The notes below the pieces were generated by a model. That model had not been told where the DNA came from. It did no database searches and was given only the letters and a program-made list of their open reading frames with translations. Shown one piece after another: positions 1-5,992 of a stretch of DNA of 13,104 nucleotides; position 1 is the first letter of the stretch; each line of letters starts with the position of its first letter. This DNA comes from a virus (taxonomy: Duplodnaviria > Heunggongvirae > Uroviricota > Caudoviricetes): positions 1 to 13,104 of IMG/VR virus record IMGVR_UViG_645058835_000001; one strand, given 5' to 3'. A program made the translations under genes and the position numbers.

Positions 1-1230
1 ATGTTTAACAAAATGGATGTAACCAAACTGAACCTCCCGAAGGTTGATATAGAAGAAATGCTTCGAAGGATAAATTCAGGAAAAGCCATTTTATTTACCG
101 GGGCAGGTTTTTCACGTAAAACAAAAAATATAACAAATGGTGAACCACCTCTTGCAAAAGCGCTATCTAAGAAAATAAGTCAGCTCGCAGGGTTAGGTTC
201 TGATAATGAAGATTTAATGTTCACTTCTCGTTTCTTTCTGAAGCACGGAAATAAAAGCGAACTTCTTAAACTATTAAAAGATAATTTTGTGTTGCGTGAA
301 GTTTCTGAATATCATGAGAAAATTTGTTCCTTACCATGGCGAAGGTTTTACACTACAAATTATGATAATTCTATTGAATTGGCATGTCTCAAAACCGGAA
401 GGAGAGTTGAGTCATTGGATATTGATGACCTTCCAAAGGATCATATTTCTCAAGGTGATTTATGTGTACATCTTAATGGCGCTATTGATAAAGCGATAAT
501 ATCCGACCTCGATTCTAAAATAAAGCTTACAAACTCATCTTATCTTTCCCCTCAATCTTTCATTAGCTCCCAATGGAATTACGTTTTTAAAAGAGATCTT
601 GAAACAGCAAGTGCTGTAATATTTGTAGGATACTCCATGTATGATATGGATGTACAAAGATTGCTCTACCAGACAGATAGTCTGGTAGAAAAGACATATT
701 TTATAGTTCATGAAAATGCTAGTTTCCAGGAAACATTTTTTTTGACTGACTTCGGACACGTTTTACCTATTGGAGTAGAAGGCTTTTCTAATTTAATCAA
801 TGATATTCAATTTCAATCCAATGAAAATCGAGAAGAAATATGTCTAGATTGTTTTGAATTAAAAGAAATTAGTTACAATCATGAAACAATTACAGATACT
901 GAAATAAAAGATTTTTTACTCTTTGGAAAGCATGATGATAATCAGATTAACACTTCTGTAAGCAATGATTTTTTAGATAATTTTTTGATAAATCGCGATC
1001 TACTTAAAGAAACTATAAGGTTAATTCAATCCAAAAATAATATTCTTATTCATAGTGAGTTAGGAAATGGTAAAACCGTTTTTCTTAAAATGATAACTTA
1101 TCTGCTCGCTCGTGAAGGATATAATGTTTATACCTTCTCTGAAAAAAGTGAATATGATGATGAATTATCCGAAATTGATTGGATCGTAAAAAAACAAAAA
1201 AAATGTAGTAATTGTGATCGAAGGTTATAA
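1..1230 (+). CDS. SIR2-like (SIR2_2-type) domain protein, N-terminal part of a SIR2-P-loop NTPase; the reading frame terminates inside the NTPase domain
   Basis: 409-aa ORF starting at ATG at position 1 (true start could lie upstream of the window). Motifs in the usual SIR2 order: AILFTGAGFS, RFYTTNYDNSIE, CVHLNGAID, VIFVGYSMYDMD. A beta-strand plus Walker A-like P-loop (ILIHSELGNGKTVFLKMITYLLAREG) sits only ~55 aa before the stop, so the NTPase domain cannot be complete in this ORF. Confidence 0.75.
   Translation: MFNKMDVTKLNLPKVDIEEMLRRINSGKAILFTGAGFSRKTKNITNGEPPLAKALSKKISQLAGLGSDNEDLMFTSRFFLKHGNKSELLKLLKDNFVLREVSEYHEKICSLPWRRFYTTNYDNSIELACLKTGRRVESLDIDDLPKDHISQGDLCVHLNGAIDKAIISDLDSKIKLTNSSYLSPQSFISSQWNYVFKRDLETASAVIFVGYSMYDMDVQRLLYQTDSLVEKTYFIVHENASFQETFFLTDFGHVLPIGVEGFSNLINDIQFQSNENREEICLDCFELKEISYNHETITDTEIKDFLLFGKHDDNQINTSVSNDFLDNFLINRDLLKETIRLIQSKNNILIHSELGNGKTVFLKMITYLLAREGYNVYTFSEKSEYDDELSEIDWIVKKQKKCSNCDRRL
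1188..1203 (+). repeat. Homopolymeric A7-C-A8 tract at the junction of the two SIR2-NTPase reading frames (candidate slippage or frameshift site)
   Basis: Read directly: cgt aaaaaaa c aaaaaaaa tgt. Frame 1 stops at 1228-1230; frame 2 is open from 1190. Removing one A joins them with no stop codon. Confidence 0.9.
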
Positions 1231-2482
1231 TAAAGCAGAACGATTGCTAAATCATATTAATATCAATTATCCTGATGAAATATCGATAATAATTACTGAT
1301 AGAAGTGCAATTGCTTTAAGAACAGCTTACTTCATCAATTCATTAGATATTGAGTTTTCTGAAGTTAGTTTAGATCAGTTAACCGAATCTGAAATTTCTG
1401 ATTTTGTTGATTTGATAGAAAATCAAGGTCTGTGGTCAGAACTTACATCATTGTCAAAGATTAACAAAATCAAAAAAGTTAAAGAAGATTACAATGGCCA
1501 AATCTCAGGGATATTATTAGGTTTACTTAAAAGCCCTTCAATTCAAGAAAGAATCAAATATTTAACAGATGAGTTGTTTAAATCTCAAGAGTATAAAGAT
1601 ACTGTGTTTGCCATAGCATTATGTGACATAATTGATGTAAGAAAAACATCTTCTATTATTTCTGAAATGGCAGGGAATGATAGTATTTATAAAATGAGTC
1701 TTAGATCAAGTGATCAGTTCAAATCTTTATATCGGTTCACAGAAAGCGGTACTGCAATTGAGACAAAATCAAGTCTAATGTCTCTTACGATCATAAATAA
1801 TAGTTTTAATGTGAGCTATGTTAGACATAAACTACTATCAATAGTCGAGACATTTAACAATCTTAAAAATGTATCGTATGATGCAAATAAAATATTTAAA
1901 TCTTTACTAAGGTTTCATGTTTTAGAAGTTTTGCTACCGCAAAAGCAAAAAGCATTGGATAGCTATTACATGGAATTGAAGCGGGTTTGCCCGTGGCTTA
2001 CTGACTCCCCACACTATTGGGTACAATATGCTATGTGTAGACTTTCAATAGGAGATTTAGACTCTGCTCAAACCTATTTAAATGATGCATACTCTTTAGC
2101 TAGATCAAAAGAAGATTATCATACGGAAAATATTGATACGCAGCAGGCTAGATTGCTAATAATGAAGTGTTTAAAAGAACCTGACTCTGGTAAGTGCTTT
2201 GATAGTTTCATCGAAGCTCATAACATACTTATTGGATTGCCTGATGATGGTTATAAGTATAGACAAATAATTCCGTATAAAGATGTCTATGAGCTAAAGT
2301 ATAAACACTTTAATAAAGGTAATAAAGTTCAATTTGAACATGCTTGCAAGGCTCTTTTAGCTCAAGTAAGTTCCGTTGATTACCACCAAGATGATCTTAC
2401 TTTAATTAAAAGAGTATCATTTATAAATAGAAGCAAGGTTATTTTAGAGGAAATAGTAAAAAGTATAACATCCAATAGATGA
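1214..2482 (+). CDS. Continuation of the same SIR2-NTPase protein (rest of the NTPase domain plus an alpha-helical, TPR-like C-terminal region); probably not an independent gene
   Basis: 422-aa ORF in the +1 frame relative to 1..1230, overlapping it by 17 nt. It begins at GTG with no Shine-Dalgarno and has no in-frame ATG for ~140 codons. Its frame opens at 1190, inside the A7-C-A8 tract. Helical repeat-like sequence near the C-terminus (YWVQYAMCRLSIGDLDSAQTYLNDAYSLA). Confidence 0.6.
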   Translation: MIEGYNKAERLLNHININYPDEISIIITDRSAIALRTAYFINSLDIEFSEVSLDQLTESEISDFVDLIENQGLWSELTSLSKINKIKKVKEDYNGQISGILLGLLKSPSIQERIKYLTDELFKSQEYKDTVFAIALCDIIDVRKTSSIISEMAGNDSIYKMSLRSSDQFKSLYRFTESGTAIETKSSLMSLTIINNSFNVSYVRHKLLSIVETFNNLKNVSYDANKIFKSLLRFHVLEVLLPQKQKALDSYYMELKRVCPWLTDSPHYWVQYAMCRLSIGDLDSAQTYLNDAYSLARSKEDYHTENIDTQQARLLIMKCLKEPDSGKCFDSFIEAHNILIGLPDDGYKYRQIIPYKDVYELKYKHFNKGNKVQFEHACKALLAQVSSVDYHQDDLTLIKRVSFINRSKVILEEIVKSITSNR

Positions 2483-2489
2483 TTTTTAT

Positions 2490-2514
2490 AAAGCAGTGGT
2501 TAATACACTGCTTT
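2490..2514 (+). terminator. Hairpin terminator candidate downstream of the SIR2-NTPase gene
   Basis: AAAGCAGTG (2490-2498), loop GTTAATA, CACTGCTTT (2506-2514): a 9-bp perfect stem starting 8 nt after the TGA at 2480-2482, followed by TATATTG. Confidence 0.5.
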
Positions 2515-2781
2515 ATATTGAGTTTCATGAATACACCATTACTGTTATTCAGTACTCATGGCTAGCGTTCTGGTATGTACTCGAGGATATTCTCCGACAT
2601 ATCGGGTTTTAAATACTCAAAACCTCAAGTGAGCGCTTTTATGACGCGCTTTTTGTATTGTTAACCCAACCGTAATCTACAGACAAAAAACCATCAGAAT
2701 CGTGCATAGGCGCTCAAATTTCACGGCTGGGGATTTCTACGTGCATTCAACCCAAAAAGTGACCGAAAAAGTGCTTACAGA

Positions 2782-2803
2782 GTTGACGTTACGTTGACGT
2801 TGT
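2782..2803. repeat. Tandem direct repeat GTTGACGTT x2 with 11-bp period (iteron-like); further TGACG cores at 2884-2891, 2972-2978 and 3005-3010
   Basis: Read directly: aGTTGACGTTacGTTGACGTTgt. Confidence 0.8.
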
Positions 2804-2830
2804 TTTCTGGTGATTTTTGCTCAGTGGTTG

Positions 2831-2856
2831 TTATTATATGTTTGATTATTATATGT
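2831..2856. repeat. AT-rich direct repeat TTATTATATGT x2 with 15-bp period
   Basis: Read directly: TTATTATATGTttgaTTATTATATGT. Confidence 0.8.
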
Positions 2857-2871
2857 ATTTTTAATGTATTG

Positions 2872-2911
2872 CTCACTTCAAACTCACGTCAACTCACTCT
2901 TATAGAGTGAT
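2872..2911. repeat. Three CTCAC repeats at ~10-bp spacing running into a 7-bp-arm palindrome TCACTCT-TAT-AGAGTGA (2895-2911)
   Basis: Read directly: gCTCACttcaAACTCACgtcAACTCACTCTtatAGAGTGA. Confidence 0.8.
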
Positions 2912-3024
2912 TAATTTCTATAAGTACTTTATCTCAAAATTTGATTTTTACGGATGGAAGCCCATCAAAGTAACGTCATTTTTTTCTAAGACTTTGATCT
3001 TTCGTTGACGGTGTTAGTGGGGAC

Positions 3025-3054
3025 TTCGGTCATCGAGCGCAATGCGCTCTTCTG
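3025..3054. repeat. Imperfect 30-bp palindrome with a perfect central 15-bp core GAGCGCAATGCGCTC flanked by GGTCA/TGACC
   Basis: Read directly: GGTCAtcGAGCGCAATGCGCTCttcTGACC. Confidence 0.75.
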
Positions 3055-3188
3055 ACCGTTTCAATGGATAGGTTCGCCTTCTTGCGCCTCTCGCGGCGTT
3101 TGCCGGCTCCGCGCTTTTGGCGGTTTGGCAGGCATATCTCTCTTATTATTGGTCGTTTTTTGCACTGCCTTGTCACGATCTGTCACTA

Positions 3189-4241
3189 CTAGTAGTAATG
3201 GTCATAACCTCCGCTTTCTCTTCTGGCTCTGGATGCTCTCACTCGTGCTTTTCTTAACATCCTTAACAGCGGGTGGGTTTGTACTTTGTTCGAGTTTATT
3301 ATCTGTGAGGATAGTAACTCCCTGCGCTCTGTCTCTGCCTCTTTGGTGACCGCTATCACTGATAAATCCCAATCGTGTTTGCTAATTAACGGTGCTTGGA
3401 ACGGGGTGATTGGTGAGCGATTTATGTCTTGTCGTTTCAATGTACGCTGTATCTGTCGCTTAGCTTTGTAGTTGTCTTTCCTTGATGCCTGAACGGCTTT
3501 TAGTATGCGTCTTACAGCATGAAAGCCAGTGATAGAAAGTGTTTCTTTTTTTATCACATGCCGCGCCCAGCCATTCGAATAACCCCAAACGTTGGCATCT
3601 GACCAATCATATAGGCTCTTGCTCGCCTCTCTATTAAAGTCATTTAACTTAGTTTCGGGCTTTGCCATGTAATCAATCTGTTTACCTATACACTTTGTAG
3701 GCTCTGAATATTGCTGACCTTTCAAATCTAGATCCCACTGGGGAGGAACATTTGATGGGATTGCATTGTTTGCCAGTGTTACCCATTTGCTGACAATTTT
3801 GCCAGCTTGCCCATTAATGCTTCTTTCGTTCACCATGATTATTGCGTGTACATGCGGCTCTGACTGGTGTTGAGCCCACTCCATGACGTAAACCCACTGA
3901 TTGCCTTTCGAAGTCAACCATCTGGTAAGTGCCTTTAACGCTTTGTTGAATTTCTCTGGCGTTGTTCCCTTAACGGGTCTGAAGGTAAAGGAGTAGGGGA
4001 TACCACTAGTTGATTCGACATCCAGAGTAAACAAAGCTCGCCTCATTGTACGCCATTTCTTCTTTGTCCAGGCTGGTGGTATGCAGTGGTTAGCCTTTGA
4101 TGATTGGCGTTTATTCTCTGCCTTTAATTCATTACGTTTGTGCGTAACTGATTTCACATAAGCTAATGTGCGACCATTGATGTGATTGATTACGGCTTGT
4201 GATTTTGTGGATAGACTCGCGTCTTTATCGTATAATTCCAT
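3189..4241 (-). CDS. HUH-endonuclease-type rolling-circle replication initiator-like protein (YfjJ/YagK, inovirus Gp2-like family)
   Basis: 350-aa ORF. Motif order typical of RCR Rep proteins: RALFTLDV / YSFTFRP (motif 1-like), EPHVHAIIMV (HUH), KQIDYMAKPETK (catalytic Tyr-x-x-x-Lys). Basic C-terminal tail. Last gene of a coupled leftward operon. Confidence 0.6.
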   Translation of the reverse strand: MELYDKDASLSTKSQAVINHINGRTLAYVKSVTHKRNELKAENKRQSSKANHCIPPAWTKKKWRTMRRALFTLDVESTSGIPYSFTFRPVKGTTPEKFNKALKALTRWLTSKGNQWVYVMEWAQHQSEPHVHAIIMVNERSINGQAGKIVSKWVTLANNAIPSNVPPQWDLDLKGQQYSEPTKCIGKQIDYMAKPETKLNDFNREASKSLYDWSDANVWGYSNGWARHVIKKETLSITGFHAVRRILKAVQASRKDNYKAKRQIQRTLKRQDINRSPITPFQAPLISKHDWDLSVIAVTKEAETERRELLSSQIINSNKVQTHPLLRMLRKARVRASRARRESGGYDHYY

Positions 4242-4268
4242 GTGTAAAGTTCATATATTTCAATTGCT

Positions 4269-4655
4269 TCAAAGCCGACTCTCGCAAAGTCGGCTTTCTG
4301 CTTTGTCAATCACAGGTATCTGTCTCCTCATCCGTTCTATTGCATGATTGAACCCTAAGTCTTCCGCGAGAGATACGTCATCCATATTGTCATTGTCATC
4401 CTCAATATCCCGTGATTCTGGAATTGCAGACTTTATTCCCGCATTCTCCGCCGCCAGCGCCGCGCACTTGGCCTCAAGGTTATCAATCGTGATTCCAGCA
4501 GAACGGCACTCCCGCAACGCCGTTTCTAGTTTTGATTCAAGTTCACCGAACTTACGGACAAGATATTCAGCGTTTGTTTCGTTAACATTTAAATCACTTG
4601 GGATGCATTTACCTTTCAGAAATCCATCCATCTCAATTAGTGTCATTTGTTTCAT
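4269..4655 (-). CDS. Hypothetical protein (128 aa), acidic C-terminal half
   Basis: ORF with GGAG-like Shine-Dalgarno upstream of the ATG at 4655; its ATG overlaps the stop of the upstream 54-aa ORF (ATGA). Confidence 0.55.
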
Positions 4656-4816
4656 TTCTTCCCACTCCGCAACATCGCATTCAGATATTTGTTTTGATTC
4701 ACTGATGGAAAAGAATTTCTCTTAAGCAATTCCTCTCTCGATGGCATTGGCTTTACGCGTTGGCGAATAATCATTTCTGCCGGAAGAATGCCGGGATTGT
4801 ATGCAAGTCCTCTCAT
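4652..4816 (-). CDS. Small hypothetical protein (54 aa, [54 protein letters not shown]), not in the supplied ORF track
   Basis: Hand-translated from the minus strand with no internal stop. Its ATG (4816-4814) overlaps the TGA of the upstream gene (ATGA) and its TGA (4654-4652) overlaps the ATG of the downstream gene (ATGA), so it exactly fills the gap between two accepted genes. Confidence 0.5.
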
Positions 4817-5103
4817 GATTTACTCTCCACGAACTGGTCAATAGCCATGCTAAGTGACACACCTAAAGTCTCGATATGCTGCTGAATATCCTGTAGCGTC
4901 TGCGCCTGAGATAACAGGATTTCACGGTTGCATAATTCTTTAACCAGATGCTCAAACTTGCTGTAATAACCGATACGGCTTAGTGTTTCTTTCCCTGCAT
5001 TCTCGCCTTCTTTGATAATTCCTCTTTCGCTAAGAATCAGATCGTGTTTGGTTCCGGTAATAACGTATTTTCCGAGGTCGATGTTTAGCTTCATTGTTTT
5101 CAT
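4813..5103 (-). CDS. Hypothetical protein (96 aa; start at [13 protein letters not shown] rather than the longer track ORF)
   Basis: GAGGAA Shine-Dalgarno 6-7 nt upstream of the ATG at 5103-5101; begins 10 nt after the stop of the upstream gene. Confidence 0.6.
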
Positions 5104-5113
5104 TGTTAATTCC

Positions 5114-5407
5114 TCAGTCATTACTGATAGCGCCATAGCGTGAGCGGTAATTACGCAGGCGCGGGTCAATTTCAGGGAAGTGTGTATATGTTGCTTTGCG
5201 GAATGGTCGGATTGATGTCTGGTAAATTCGCTCGCGTTCTTCTTTCTCTGCAAGCCATATACAGTGGCGAAATTCCTTTTCCTCTTTCGTTTCCTGCGGT
5301 AGAGACATTATTCGATCGTAGTTTTTTCTGAATTTATCCAGCACCTCCGATACGGAATTGCCGGAACAGCGGCGTGGGTCATCCGCACCATACAGAGGCG
5401 CTGGCAT
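5114..5407 (-). CDS. Hypothetical protein (97 aa)
   Basis: ORF with AAGGA Shine-Dalgarno ~8 nt upstream of the ATG at 5407; same strand and tight spacing with neighbours. Confidence 0.6.
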   Translation of the reverse strand: MPAPLYGADDPRRCSGNSVSEVLDKFRKNYDRIMSLPQETKEEKEFRHCIWLAEKEERERIYQTSIRPFRKATYTHFPEIDPRLRNYRSRYGAISND

Positions 5408-5430
5408 AATTAAATCCTTATTTTTCTAAA

Positions 5431-5814
5431 TCAGAATGGGATGGAATCGTCGTATACAGGAGTGTTCTGCTGGTTACTACTTTGCTGCTGCGGGCCATTT
5501 CCTGAAGCTGCAAATCCAATCTTTGCATTCAGTAATTCAAGAGTGATTGATTGACCATTTTGCCCCTGATAAACATCAACCCTGATGTTTTCTCCGGTAA
5601 TTTCCACAATGCCACCTTCAACAAGAACACTACGGTAGTAATCCGCTTGCGCTCCCGGCTTGGCAAATACAACGGCGCTGTAGTTTGTCCATTCTTTCTT
5701 TTTTGTCTGGCGATCGTAATACTGAACGCCAGCACGGATGTTGAATCCGATATTTTCCCCGGCCTGAAACTCTCTTGCGGGCTTGTTTAGTCTTACAGTA
5801 ATCGAATGTGCCAT
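5431..5814 (-). CDS. Single-stranded DNA-binding protein-like (short OB-fold SSB with an acidic C-terminal tip)
   Basis: 127 aa from MAHSITVRLNKP. C-terminus ...NTPVYDDSIPF resembles the conserved SSB tail DDDIPF; a Gln/Asn/Gly-rich linker precedes the tail. GGAG upstream of the ATG at 5814-5812. Confidence 0.55.
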   Translation of the reverse strand: MAHSITVRLNKPAREFQAGENIGFNIRAGVQYYDRQTKKKEWTNYSAVVFAKPGAQADYYRSVLVEGGIVEITGENIRVDVYQGQNGQSITLELLNAKIGFAASGNGPQQQSSNQQNTPVYDDSIPF

Positions 5815-5951
5815 TAAGCAGCCGCTCCTTCTAATTCGTCTCGTCTGATGTTGTAAACGCCCTGCGCTTTGTGCTGCTCCGGTGTGCCTTCGAGCATCTT
5901 CCACGCTTTGGCGAACGCCTGTTTAAGCTCTTCTACGGTGTTTTTCTGCAT
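5814..5951 (-). CDS. Possible small leader ORF (~45 aa, MQKNTVEELKQAFAKAWKMLEGTPEQHKAQGVYNIRRDELEGAAA) coupled to the SSB-like gene; start uncertain
   Basis: Its TAA stop (5816-5814) overlaps the SSB-like ATG (TAATG). No convincing Shine-Dalgarno; the longer track version (to 6113) overlaps the DnaB-like ORF on the opposite strand. Confidence 0.25.
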   Translation of the reverse strand: MQKNTVEELKQAFAKAWKMLEGTPEQHKAQGVYNIRRDELEGAAA

Positions 5952-5992
5952 TGCTGCGTCAGTGAATGCTTTTAGAACCTGTTCAGGTGTAG

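What the first reader, a model, noticed from the sequence alone, without database searches (positions are those of the whole stretch)
1188..1203. A7-C-A8 homopolymer exactly at the frame break of the SIR2-NTPase gene: phase-variable switch, programmed frameshift, pseudogene or sequencing error
Seen: frame 1 stops at 1228-1230 and frame 2 opens at 1190; the two overlap across an A7-C-A8 run. Deleting a single A (or a +1 ribosomal slip) gives an uninterrupted ...DWIVKKQK-NVVIVIEGYNKAERLL... reading with the P-loop domain intact. Inference: homopolymer slippage could toggle expression of a potentially toxic NAD-depleting effector, a plausible ON/OFF mechanism. Assembly error at a homopolymer is equally possible.
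Basis: partly seen in the sequence, partly recalled or inferred. Interest (0 to 1): 0.6.

Follow-up and report, generated by a model that had tools for sequence, protein, structure and literature searches.

The report
One-base homopolymer frameshift in Avs5 gene
A known type of antiphage gene (Avs5, a SIR2-STAND NAD-depleting sensor) is split in this record by one extra A in a run of As, and this looks like a sequencing miscall or a sporadic inactivating mutation rather than a built-in on/off switch.

Summary
The A7-C-A8 tract (1188-1203) and the frame break are real in the sequence. The gene is a full-length homologue of the solved antiphage protein EfAvs5 (PDB 9JAP, E = 8e-163).

All seven complete E. 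coli genomes that carry the locus have an intact 826-aa gene, and so do one metagenome contig and three assemblies that are nearly identical to the window's source over 21 kb. In all of them the tract is A6-C-A8. The window therefore has one extra A in the first run.

Among exact-protein look-ups, the +1 allele occurs on one contig only, which is the window's own draft assembly GCA_000158395.1. Intact proteins occur on at least 383 contigs. A -1 allele (A6-C-A7) occurs on 5 contigs. The gene's other 8-base run (T8, 736-743) shows +/-1 frameshifts at a similar frequency, so the tract is not special.

The tract is not conserved in orthologues. ORF2 has no ribosome-binding site and starts inside the Walker B strand.

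Verdict: this is a non-programmed homopolymer indel, most likely an assembly artefact and otherwise a recent null mutation. A phase switch or programmed frameshift is not supported. Interest is low.

The parts
1..2482 (+). avs5-like gene (SIR2 effector, STAND NTPase, short C-terminal sensor), interrupted as assembled. It is 2482 nt here and 2481 nt (826 aa) in every intact copy.
   Evidence: Full-length phmmer match to PDB 9JAP (EfAvs5), residues 17-826, E = 8.4e-163. Pfam SIR2_2 at 115-231 and nSTAND_NTPase5 at 325-419. RefSeq annotates an intact 'SIR2 family protein' in 7 complete genomes.
1..1230 (+). ORF1, 409 aa. It holds the SIR2 domain and the first half of the nucleotide-binding domain (through Walker A), followed by 12 out-of-frame residues (KQKKCSNCDRRL) and a stop.
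   Evidence: This exact product is on record for one contig only, GG657384.1 of GCA_000158395.1.
358..360 (+). Codon for Asn120, which aligns with the catalytic Asn141 of the EfAvs5 SIR2 domain.
   Evidence: Alignment. The N141A mutation abolishes defence in EfAvs5 (PMC11897194).
736..743 (+). T8 run inside the SIR2 domain. It is the gene's other 8-base homopolymer and serves as a control site.
   Evidence: The predicted T7 and T9 frameshift products exist in the public collection on 4 and 2 contigs.
1063..1077 (+). Walker A motif GNGKT (Lys358).
   Evidence: Sequence. It aligns with the EfAvs5 GNGKS motif (K379).
1188..1194 (+). First A run, A7 here and A6 in every intact copy. It contains the extra base that breaks the frame.
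1195..1203 (+). C followed by A8. This part is the same as in intact alleles. It is shortened to A7 in the separate -1 allele found in other assemblies (L010, L011, L012).
1208..1222 (+). Walker B-like strand VIVIE (Glu407), read in frame 2. The frameshift therefore separates Walker A from Walker B.
   Evidence: Alignment to EfAvs5 D426. PaAvs5-1 has the same single-acid Walker B, IIFIE (PMC12931631).
1214..2482 (+). ORF2, 422 aa if started at GTG 1214, which is codon Val405 inside the Walker B strand. It holds the rest of the NOD and the C-terminal sensor. No Shine-Dalgarno sequence lies upstream and no promoter-like site lies nearby.
2487..2517 (+). Terminator-like hairpin directly after the stop codon, consistent with one transcription unit for the whole gene.

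Best explanation
The frame break is a non-programmed one-base insertion (A6 to A7) in a lysine/asparagine-rich loop codon stretch of an otherwise intact avs5 antiphage gene. It is most likely a homopolymer miscall in this one early draft assembly. In that case the organism's gene is intact, and encodes an 826-aa SIR2-STAND protein that senses phage proteins, oligomerises through its SIR2 and NOD domains, and depletes NAD+. Shown here: the insertion, its uniqueness to this assembly, and full-length homology to EfAvs5. Inferred: that the extra base is technical, and that the intact protein works like EfAvs5.
For: (1) All 7 complete E. coli genomes with the locus have A6-C-A8 and an intact 2481-nt CDS. 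So does a metagenome contig.
(2) Three independent assemblies with the same mosaic locus differ from the window's assembly by 1-2 SNPs in 21.2 kb, and the only indel is this A.
(3) The exact 409-aa product exists on one contig only, the window's own scaffold GG657384.1 of GCA_000158395.1. Intact 826-aa proteins are on 249 + 65 + 55 + 6 + 4 + 2 + 2 contigs.
(4) A +/-1 change in a 6-base run is otherwise unseen. A5-C-A8 and +/-1 variants at three other 6-base runs of allele 1 are all absent from the collection.
(5) From memory, not verified with the tools: the accession series dates to 2009, and I recall a Broad HMP draft named 'Shigella sp. D9' from the pyrosequencing era, when homopolymer length miscalls were the dominant error. 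One paper excluded 'Shigella sp. D9' for 'very odd behavior' (PMC3575317).
Against: In 31.6 kb of this assembly there are 61 runs of at least 6 bases and 16 of at least 7. Only this one differs from relatives, so the assembly is not visibly riddled with homopolymer errors. Frameshifts at the adjacent A8 run and at the T8 run do occur in other assemblies that are probably Illumina-based (platforms not checked), so real slippage mutations in this gene do seem to occur. The sequencing platform and strain name of the assembly could not be verified with the tools. No reads could be inspected.
Confidence: 0.58

Rival explanations
1. This is a genuine, recent replication-slippage mutation that inactivates avs5 in this isolate, making it a sporadic pseudogene. 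The 409-aa product keeps SIR2 and Walker A but lacks Walker B, the WHD and the sensor. It therefore cannot form the NBD-WHD dimers and filaments needed for NADase activity, and the allele is null.
For: Other homopolymer frameshift alleles of the same gene exist. A6-C-A7 is on 5 contigs, including L010 from SRR5943576, an O7:H18 E. coli listed in PMC6562246. T7 and T9 variants at 736-743 are on 4 and 2 contigs. Together about 12 of 261 allele-1 contigs carry such a frameshift. EfAvs5 is toxic when induced, and Walker A, Walker B, sensor-deletion and dimer-interface mutants lose defence or NADase activity (PMC11897194; PMC12931631). Loss of function is thus plausible and probably cheap for the cell. 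The rest of the assembly looks clean.
Against: The event is private to one early draft, while clone-mates with 1-2 SNPs per 21 kb are intact. It lies in the 6-base run, where no other +/-1 variant was found in hundreds of assemblies. Real slippage should favour the 8-base run.
Confidence: 0.3
2. The tract is a contingency locus. Reversible slippage in the A runs toggles Avs5 ON and OFF within populations, letting lineages escape the cost or autoimmunity of an NAD-depleting effector and regain it later.
For: Three length alleles exist (A6-C-A8, A7-C-A8, A6-C-A7), and OFF alleles sit on backgrounds nearly identical to ON alleles. The window differs from L017-L019 by 1-2 SNPs in 21 kb. L010 differs from L004 by 0 mismatches in about 5.4 kb. 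The composite tract is uncommon in codon shuffles of the gene, at 0.2-1.7%.
Against: The ON form makes up about 98% of contigs. The runs are short (6 and 8) and interrupted, and E. coli is mismatch-repair proficient (general knowledge). The tract is absent from the 87%- and 70%-identical orthologues, and the loop is variable in the family. The unrelated T8 run shows the same frequency of +/-1 variants, so nothing singles out this site. No within-sample heterogeneity could be examined.
Confidence: 0.07
3. Programmed recoding makes full-length Avs5 from the A7-C-A8 template. This could be a +1 ribosomal frameshift on the Lys codons, or RNA polymerase slippage that drops one A.
For: Poly-A runs are known sites of ribosome and polymerase slippage, and frameshift alleles rescued in this way are documented (PMC1088944; PMC4256274 listed). 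Deleting one A in the mRNA would give ...VKKQKNVV..., a change confined to a variable loop. Trace rescue is therefore conceivable.
Against: The frameshifted arrangement is not conserved in any orthologue or even in clone-mates. E. coli RNA polymerase needs at least 7 T, and more for A runs, and is inefficient at it (PMC6260861). Selection signatures for slippage appear at about 9 nt (PMC1088944). No stimulatory element was identified, and none was searched for in depth.
Confidence: 0.03
4. This is a genuine two-gene arrangement in which SIR2 and the NTPase-sensor are expressed as separate subunits.
For: Gene callers output two ORFs that overlap by 17 nt.
Against: ORF2's only start is a GTG inside the Walker B beta-strand, with no Shine-Dalgarno sequence (AAAAAACAAAAAAAATGTAGTAATT upstream) and no promoter-like site. 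The split separates Walker A from Walker B within one nucleotide-binding domain. Every homologue listed is a single polypeptide of about 815-830 aa.
Confidence: 0.01

Closest known systems
Avs5 / AVAST type 5 (SIR2-STAND), e.g. EfAvs5 from Escherichia fergusonii (PDB 9JAP; PMC11897194), and EcAvs5 and PaAvs5 (PMC12931631)
   Same: The alignment runs end to end (residues 17-826, E = 8.4e-163). The gene has an N-terminal SIR2 domain with the catalytic Asn, Walker A GNGK[ST], a single-acid Walker B, and a short C-terminal sensor. It is a single gene on a mobile island.
   Different: It is a divergent allele group whose best E. coli and Vibrio relatives outside its own cluster are about 43% identical. 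The PADLOC v2 and NCBIfam models do not label it as Avs5. Its phage specificity and trigger are unknown. In this record it is frameshifted.
Simple-sequence-repeat phase variation (contingency loci, e.g. homopolymer-controlled surface and restriction-modification genes of Haemophilus, Neisseria, Campylobacter; named from general knowledge)
   Same: A mononucleotide run inside a coding region has a length that differs by +/-1 between assemblies and decides whether the full protein is made.
   Different: The runs are only 6 and 8 bases and are interrupted. OFF alleles make up about 2% of contigs rather than a large fraction. The tract is not conserved in orthologues. A control run in the same gene behaves the same way. 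No within-population switching has been shown.
Rescue of frameshift alleles by transcriptional slippage (Shigella mxiE, Citrobacter rodentium tssM, 9A/9T runs in IS elements; PMC1088944, PMC4256274)
   Same: An out-of-frame gene with an A/T run at the break point.
   Different: Those cases use runs of about 9 or more, and the arrangement is conserved. Here the runs are 7 and 8, the arrangement is unique to one assembly, and E. coli RNA polymerase slips poorly on A runs of this length (PMC6260861).
Homopolymer-length miscalls in early draft assemblies (general knowledge of pyrosequencing error profiles)
   Same: A single-base length difference in a homopolymer, private to one early draft, set against many later assemblies of near-identical strains.
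   Different: The platform of this assembly was not verified here. No other such indel is seen in the 31.6 kb that could be compared.

Membership tests
Avs5 (AVAST type 5, SIR2-STAND) | N-terminal SIR2 NADase domain with the catalytic Asn | tested here: met
   Pfam SIR2_2, E = 2.7e-10. YTTNYDN aligns with EfAvs5, with Asn120 matching Asn141 (PMC11897194).
Avs5 (AVAST type 5, SIR2-STAND) | Central STAND/NOD NTPase with Walker A Lys and a Walker B acid | tested here: met
   GNGKT (K358) and VIVIE (E407) align with EfAvs5 K379 and D426. Pfam nSTAND_NTPase5 scores 30.9 bits, below the 34-bit cutoff.
Avs5 (AVAST type 5, SIR2-STAND) | Short C-terminal sensor domain that is collinear with characterised members | tested here: met
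   The alignment to 9JAP continues to the last residue, 826 to 864.
Avs5 (AVAST type 5, SIR2-STAND) | Recognition by curated defence-system models | tested here: not met
   PADLOC v2 gives only ThsA SIR2 and weak Dsr1 hits. NCBIfam gives only a sub-threshold Dsr1 hit. This is a limit of model coverage, and the full-length match to the solved protein outweighs it.
Avs5 (AVAST type 5, SIR2-STAND) | Antiphage activity through phage-triggered NAD+ depletion | not testable with these tools
   This needs plaque assays and NAD+ measurements with the intact allele.
Phase-variable contingency locus | Repeat length differs between isolates and sets ON or OFF | tested here: inconclusive
   Three alleles exist, but OFF is rare. 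One contig carries +1, five carry -1, and two carry an allele-2 C-terminal fragment of unknown cause. At least 383 contigs are intact. Some of these variants may be technical.
Phase-variable contingency locus | The tract is maintained or conserved in related genes beyond what the coding needs | tested here: not met
   The 87% orthologue reads AAA CAT AAA AAC AAT, and the 70% orthologue has only an A7 run. The loop is variable across 50 homologues.
Phase-variable contingency locus | The site is more unstable than comparable sequence elsewhere in the gene | tested here: not met
   The T8 run at 736-743 has -1 on 4 contigs and +1 on 2 contigs, similar to the A8 run.
Phase-variable contingency locus | High-frequency reversible switching within a clonal population | not testable with these tools
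   There is no access to reads or cultures.
Programmed frameshift / transcriptional slippage gene | The out-of-frame two-ORF arrangement is conserved among orthologues | tested here: not met
   All complete genomes, clone-mates and homologues are single ORFs.
Programmed frameshift / transcriptional slippage gene | A slippery run long enough for efficient slippage in the host (about 9 A/T) | tested here: not met
   The runs are 7 and 8. The thresholds come from PMC1088944 and PMC6260861.

The most novel reading that the evidence does not exclude
The two 8-base homopolymers of this avs5 allele (A8 at 1196-1203 with its flanking A6, and T8 at 736-743) may act together as low-rate, reversible mutational toggles. 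About 4-5% of allele-1 contigs are OFF through +/-1 changes at exactly these runs. This would let E. coli lineages shed and regain a costly NAD-depleting abortive-infection gene. It would be a weak contingency mechanism for a STAND defence gene in a mismatch-repair-proficient enterobacterium.
Probability: 0.08. Interest if true: 0.4.

Novelty: already known. Interest (0 to 1): 0.12.

Why it matters
It matters little in itself. In practice, the locus should be annotated as a single avs5 (SIR2-STAND) gene with a frameshift, or corrected if the reads show A6. It should not be treated as two genes or as a switch. Two minor points of value follow. First, this allele group is a full-length Avs5 homologue that current PADLOC and NCBIfam models do not name as such. 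Second, homopolymer frameshifts account for a few percent of public copies of this defence gene. That is relevant to anyone who counts 'intact' defence systems from draft assemblies.

Tried and rejected
- A scan of GTDB species-representative genomes for the tract with flexible length found 0 matches, so it added nothing.
- A plasmid collection search found no match.
- The metagenome scan found one contig, which is intact.
- PADLOC and NCBIfam gave no Avs5 label. The PDB sequence search settled the family instead.
- I tried to tie GCA_000158395.1 / GG657384.1 to a strain name and platform through papers and taxonomy. No accession link was found, so the recalled name 'Shigella sp. D9' and the pyrosequencing era remain unverified.
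The cause of that disruption is unknown.
- Hypothetical A6-C-A9 and A5-C-A8 products, and +/-1 products at three 6-base runs, are absent from the collection.
- I did not run a structure prediction, because a solved full-length homologue exists.
- I considered a deliberate split into SIR2 and NTPase-sensor subunits and rejected it. The break falls between Walker A and Walker B, and ORF2 lacks start signals.

Full report
**Observation.** The window reads GGATCGT-A7-C-A8-TGTAG, with A7 at 1188-1194, C at 1195 and A8 at 1196-1203.
- Frame 1 is open from ATG 1 to TAA 1228-1230, giving 409 aa.
- Frame 2 opens at 1190, after TAA 1187-1189, and runs to the stop at 2480-2482.
- The first start codon in frame 2 is GTG 1214, giving 422 aa.

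**What the gene is.** Joined, the two ORFs give an 826-aa protein.
- Pfam finds SIR2_2 at residues 115-231 and a sub-threshold nSTAND_NTPase5 at 325-419.
- PADLOC and NCBIfam recognise only the SIR2 part.
- A sequence search of the PDB gives one end-to-end match: residues 17-826 against 9JAP chain A, E = 8.4e-163.
- 9JAP is EfAvs5, the type-5 antiviral STAND protein of Escherichia fergusonii (PMC11897194).

In the alignment:
- Asn120 matches the catalytic Asn141.
- GNGKT (Lys358) matches Walker A K379.
- VIVIE (Glu407) matches Walker B D426.

A single-acid Walker B (IIFIE) is also described for PaAvs5-1 (PMC12931631). By sequence, the gene is therefore an Avs5 (SIR2-STAND) antiphage gene.

EfAvs5 has been shown to form SIR2- and NOD-mediated filaments on sensing a phage protein, and then to hydrolyse NAD+. 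Mutations in SIR2, Walker A, Walker B or the dimer interface, and deletion of the sensor, abolish defence. That this protein works the same way is an inference.

The A tract encodes Lys397-Asn401 (KNKKN). This is a loop between Walker A and the Walker B strand.

**Comparison with other copies.**
- Megablast against 5,426 complete E. coli genomes finds the locus in seven. All seven have an intact 2481-nt CDS annotated 'SIR2 family protein'.
- In all seven the tract is A6-C-A8. The window therefore carries one extra A in the first run.
- The window comes from NCBI assembly GCA_000158395.1, scaffold GG657384.1.
- Three other assemblies carry the very same mosaic: the avs5 island fused to P22/HK620-like prophage remnants and intS at tRNA-Arg.
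- These three differ from that scaffold by 1-2 SNPs over 21.2 kb. The only indel is this A, and they are intact.
- A further 17 places were collapsed by the tool as having mostly the same neighbouring proteins.
- A JGI metagenome contig also has A6-C-A8.

**Population counts by exact protein look-up**.

| Form | Contigs |
|---|---|
| Intact 826-aa proteins | 249 + 65 + 55 + 6 + 4 + 2 + 2 |
| Window's 409-aa product (A7-C-A8) | 1 (its own scaffold) |
| 401-aa product predicted for A6-C-A7 | 5 |
| Predicted A6-C-A9 and A5-C-A8 products | absent |
| Allele-2 C-terminal 422-aa fragment | 2 |
| T7 product at the T8 run (736-743) | 4 |
| T9 product at the T8 run (736-743) | 2 |
| +/-1 products at three other 6-base runs | absent |

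- I read the A6-C-A7 allele directly in three Logan assemblies, L010, L011 and L012. One of them, SRR5943576, is an O7:H18 E. coli listed in PMC6562246.
- I could not look up the contigs behind the allele-2 fragment, so its cause is unknown.
- The T8 run and the three 6-base runs served as controls.

The gene's two 8-base runs are thus ordinary hot spots for +/-1 differences, whether biological or technical, at about 1-2% of contigs each. The A tract is not special. The window's event, a +1 in a 6-base run, is the only one of its kind. Contig counts may include the same strain more than once.

**Conservation.** Across 50 homologues the KNKKN loop is variable, with sequences such as K-HKNN, S-RKEQ and K-NESN.
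- At the DNA level the 87%-identical orthologue reads AAA CAT AAA AAC AAT.
- The 70%-identical Pectobacterium orthologue has only an A7 run.
- An A8 run is expected in 54% of codon shuffles of this 31%-GC gene.
- The composite tract appears in 0.2-1.7% of shuffles, depending on definition.

Nothing indicates that selection maintains a long tract.

**Expression signals.**
- The 25 nt before GTG 1214 are AAAAAACAAAAAAAATGTAGTAATT, with no Shine-Dalgarno sequence.
- GTG 1214 is Val405, inside the Walker B strand.
- No promoter-like site lies near it.
- A terminator-like hairpin follows the stop of the whole gene at 2487-2517.

The two ORFs are not an operon of two subunits.

**Recoding.** Restoring the frame on the A7-C-A8 template needs either a +1 ribosomal shift or the loss of one A in the mRNA.
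- E. coli RNA polymerase needs at least 7 T, and more for A runs, and bypasses indels poorly (PMC6260861).
- Genome-wide avoidance and use of slippage appears at about 9 nt (PMC1088944).

Trace read-through is conceivable. A programmed mechanism is not supported, because the out-of-frame arrangement is not conserved even among clone-mates.

**Artefact or real mutation?** This cannot be settled without reads.

*For an artefact:*
- The change is private to one early draft.
- Clone-mates are intact.
- The changed run is the 6-base one next to an 8-base run. That kind of +/-1 is not seen anywhere else in the gene across hundreds of assemblies.
- From memory, unverified: the accession dates to 2009, and I recall a Broad HMP draft named 'Shigella sp. 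D9' from the pyrosequencing era. One comparative study dropped 'Shigella sp. D9' for 'very odd behavior' (PMC3575317).

*Against an artefact:*
- In the 31.6 kb of this scaffold that I could compare, there are 61 runs of at least 6 bases and 16 of at least 7. No other run differs from relatives.
- Frameshifts at the neighbouring runs in assemblies that are probably Illumina-based (platforms not checked) suggest that real loss-of-function slippage happens in this gene.

| Explanation | Probability |
|---|---|
| Artefact | 0.58 |
| Real recent null mutation | 0.30 |
| Contingency switch | 0.07 |
| Recoding | 0.03 |
| True split gene | 0.01 |

If the mutation is real, the allele is predicted to be null. 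The 409-aa product lacks Walker B, the WHD and the sensor, all of which are required in EfAvs5 and PaAvs5.

**Verdict.** This is an ordinary homopolymer indel in a known type of defence gene. Interest is low. The only mildly useful by-products are the Avs5 identification of a protein that current defence-model libraries do not name, and the observation that a few percent of public copies carry homopolymer frameshifts.

Noticed in passing
window 736-743: The T8 run inside the SIR2 domain is conserved in the 87% orthologue L013. The predicted T7 and T9 frameshift products of allele 1 exist in public assemblies on 4 and 2 contigs. This is a second hot spot for disruption of the gene.
   Followed up: partly
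window 3189-13104: Downstream of avs5 the window holds a rolling-circle Rep-like gene (3189-4241) followed by degraded P22/HK620-like prophage genes. These are Ead/Ea22, DUF2737, an anti-RecBCD protein, an ERF remnant, a DnaB-like fragment at 5993-7000, an Arc/Mnt repressor, HNH, a tailspike at 8033-10210, an O-antigen polymerase-like gene at 10388-11632, and intS at 11947-13104. Five of the other complete genomes (L004-L007 seen in full, L002 and L003 as far as fetched) instead carry a tyrosine integrase, AlpA-like and HTH module after the Rep gene. The island has therefore recombined with a prophage at the argW site in this lineage.
   Followed up: partly
L013 3001-5481 (87% orthologue, Logan ERR4782849): The residue aligned with the Walker B acid (E407 here, D426 in EfAvs5) is Lys (VIKGY) in this otherwise intact orthologue. 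This could be an NTP-binding-deficient or differently regulated variant.
   Followed up: no
upstream of the window (L001 9417-10043, L008 8417-9043): A 208-aa serine recombinase (resolvase/invertase family) and a 58-aa ORF sit next to avs5 in every copy examined. Some genomes have a second, degraded recombinase copy. They may be part of the mobile unit that carries avs5.
   Followed up: no
whole gene, window 1-2482: PADLOC-DB v2 and NCBIfam release 20 do not label this protein as Avs5, although it aligns end to end with the solved EfAvs5. This is an annotation gap for the allele group, which RefSeq names only 'SIR2 family protein'.
   Followed up: yes
L010 (SRR5943576), L011 (SRR024152), L012 (ERR1789995): A separate -1 allele (A6-C-A7) of the same tract gives a 401-aa N-terminal product. 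NCBI lists that product as WP_254593382.1 'SIR2 family protein [Shigella sonnei]'. SRR5943576 was reported as an O7:H18 E. coli misidentified as Shigella (PMC6562246). L012 carries an extra synonymous SNP and a different downstream context, so the -1 allele may have arisen more than once.
   Followed up: partly
window 2483-3188: A 706-bp non-coding stretch lies between avs5 and the Rep-like gene. It has several short hairpins (2782-2798, 2894-2910) and repeated GTTGACGT motifs around 2780-2800. It could be an origin or regulatory region of the Rep module. I did not analyse it.
   Followed up: no
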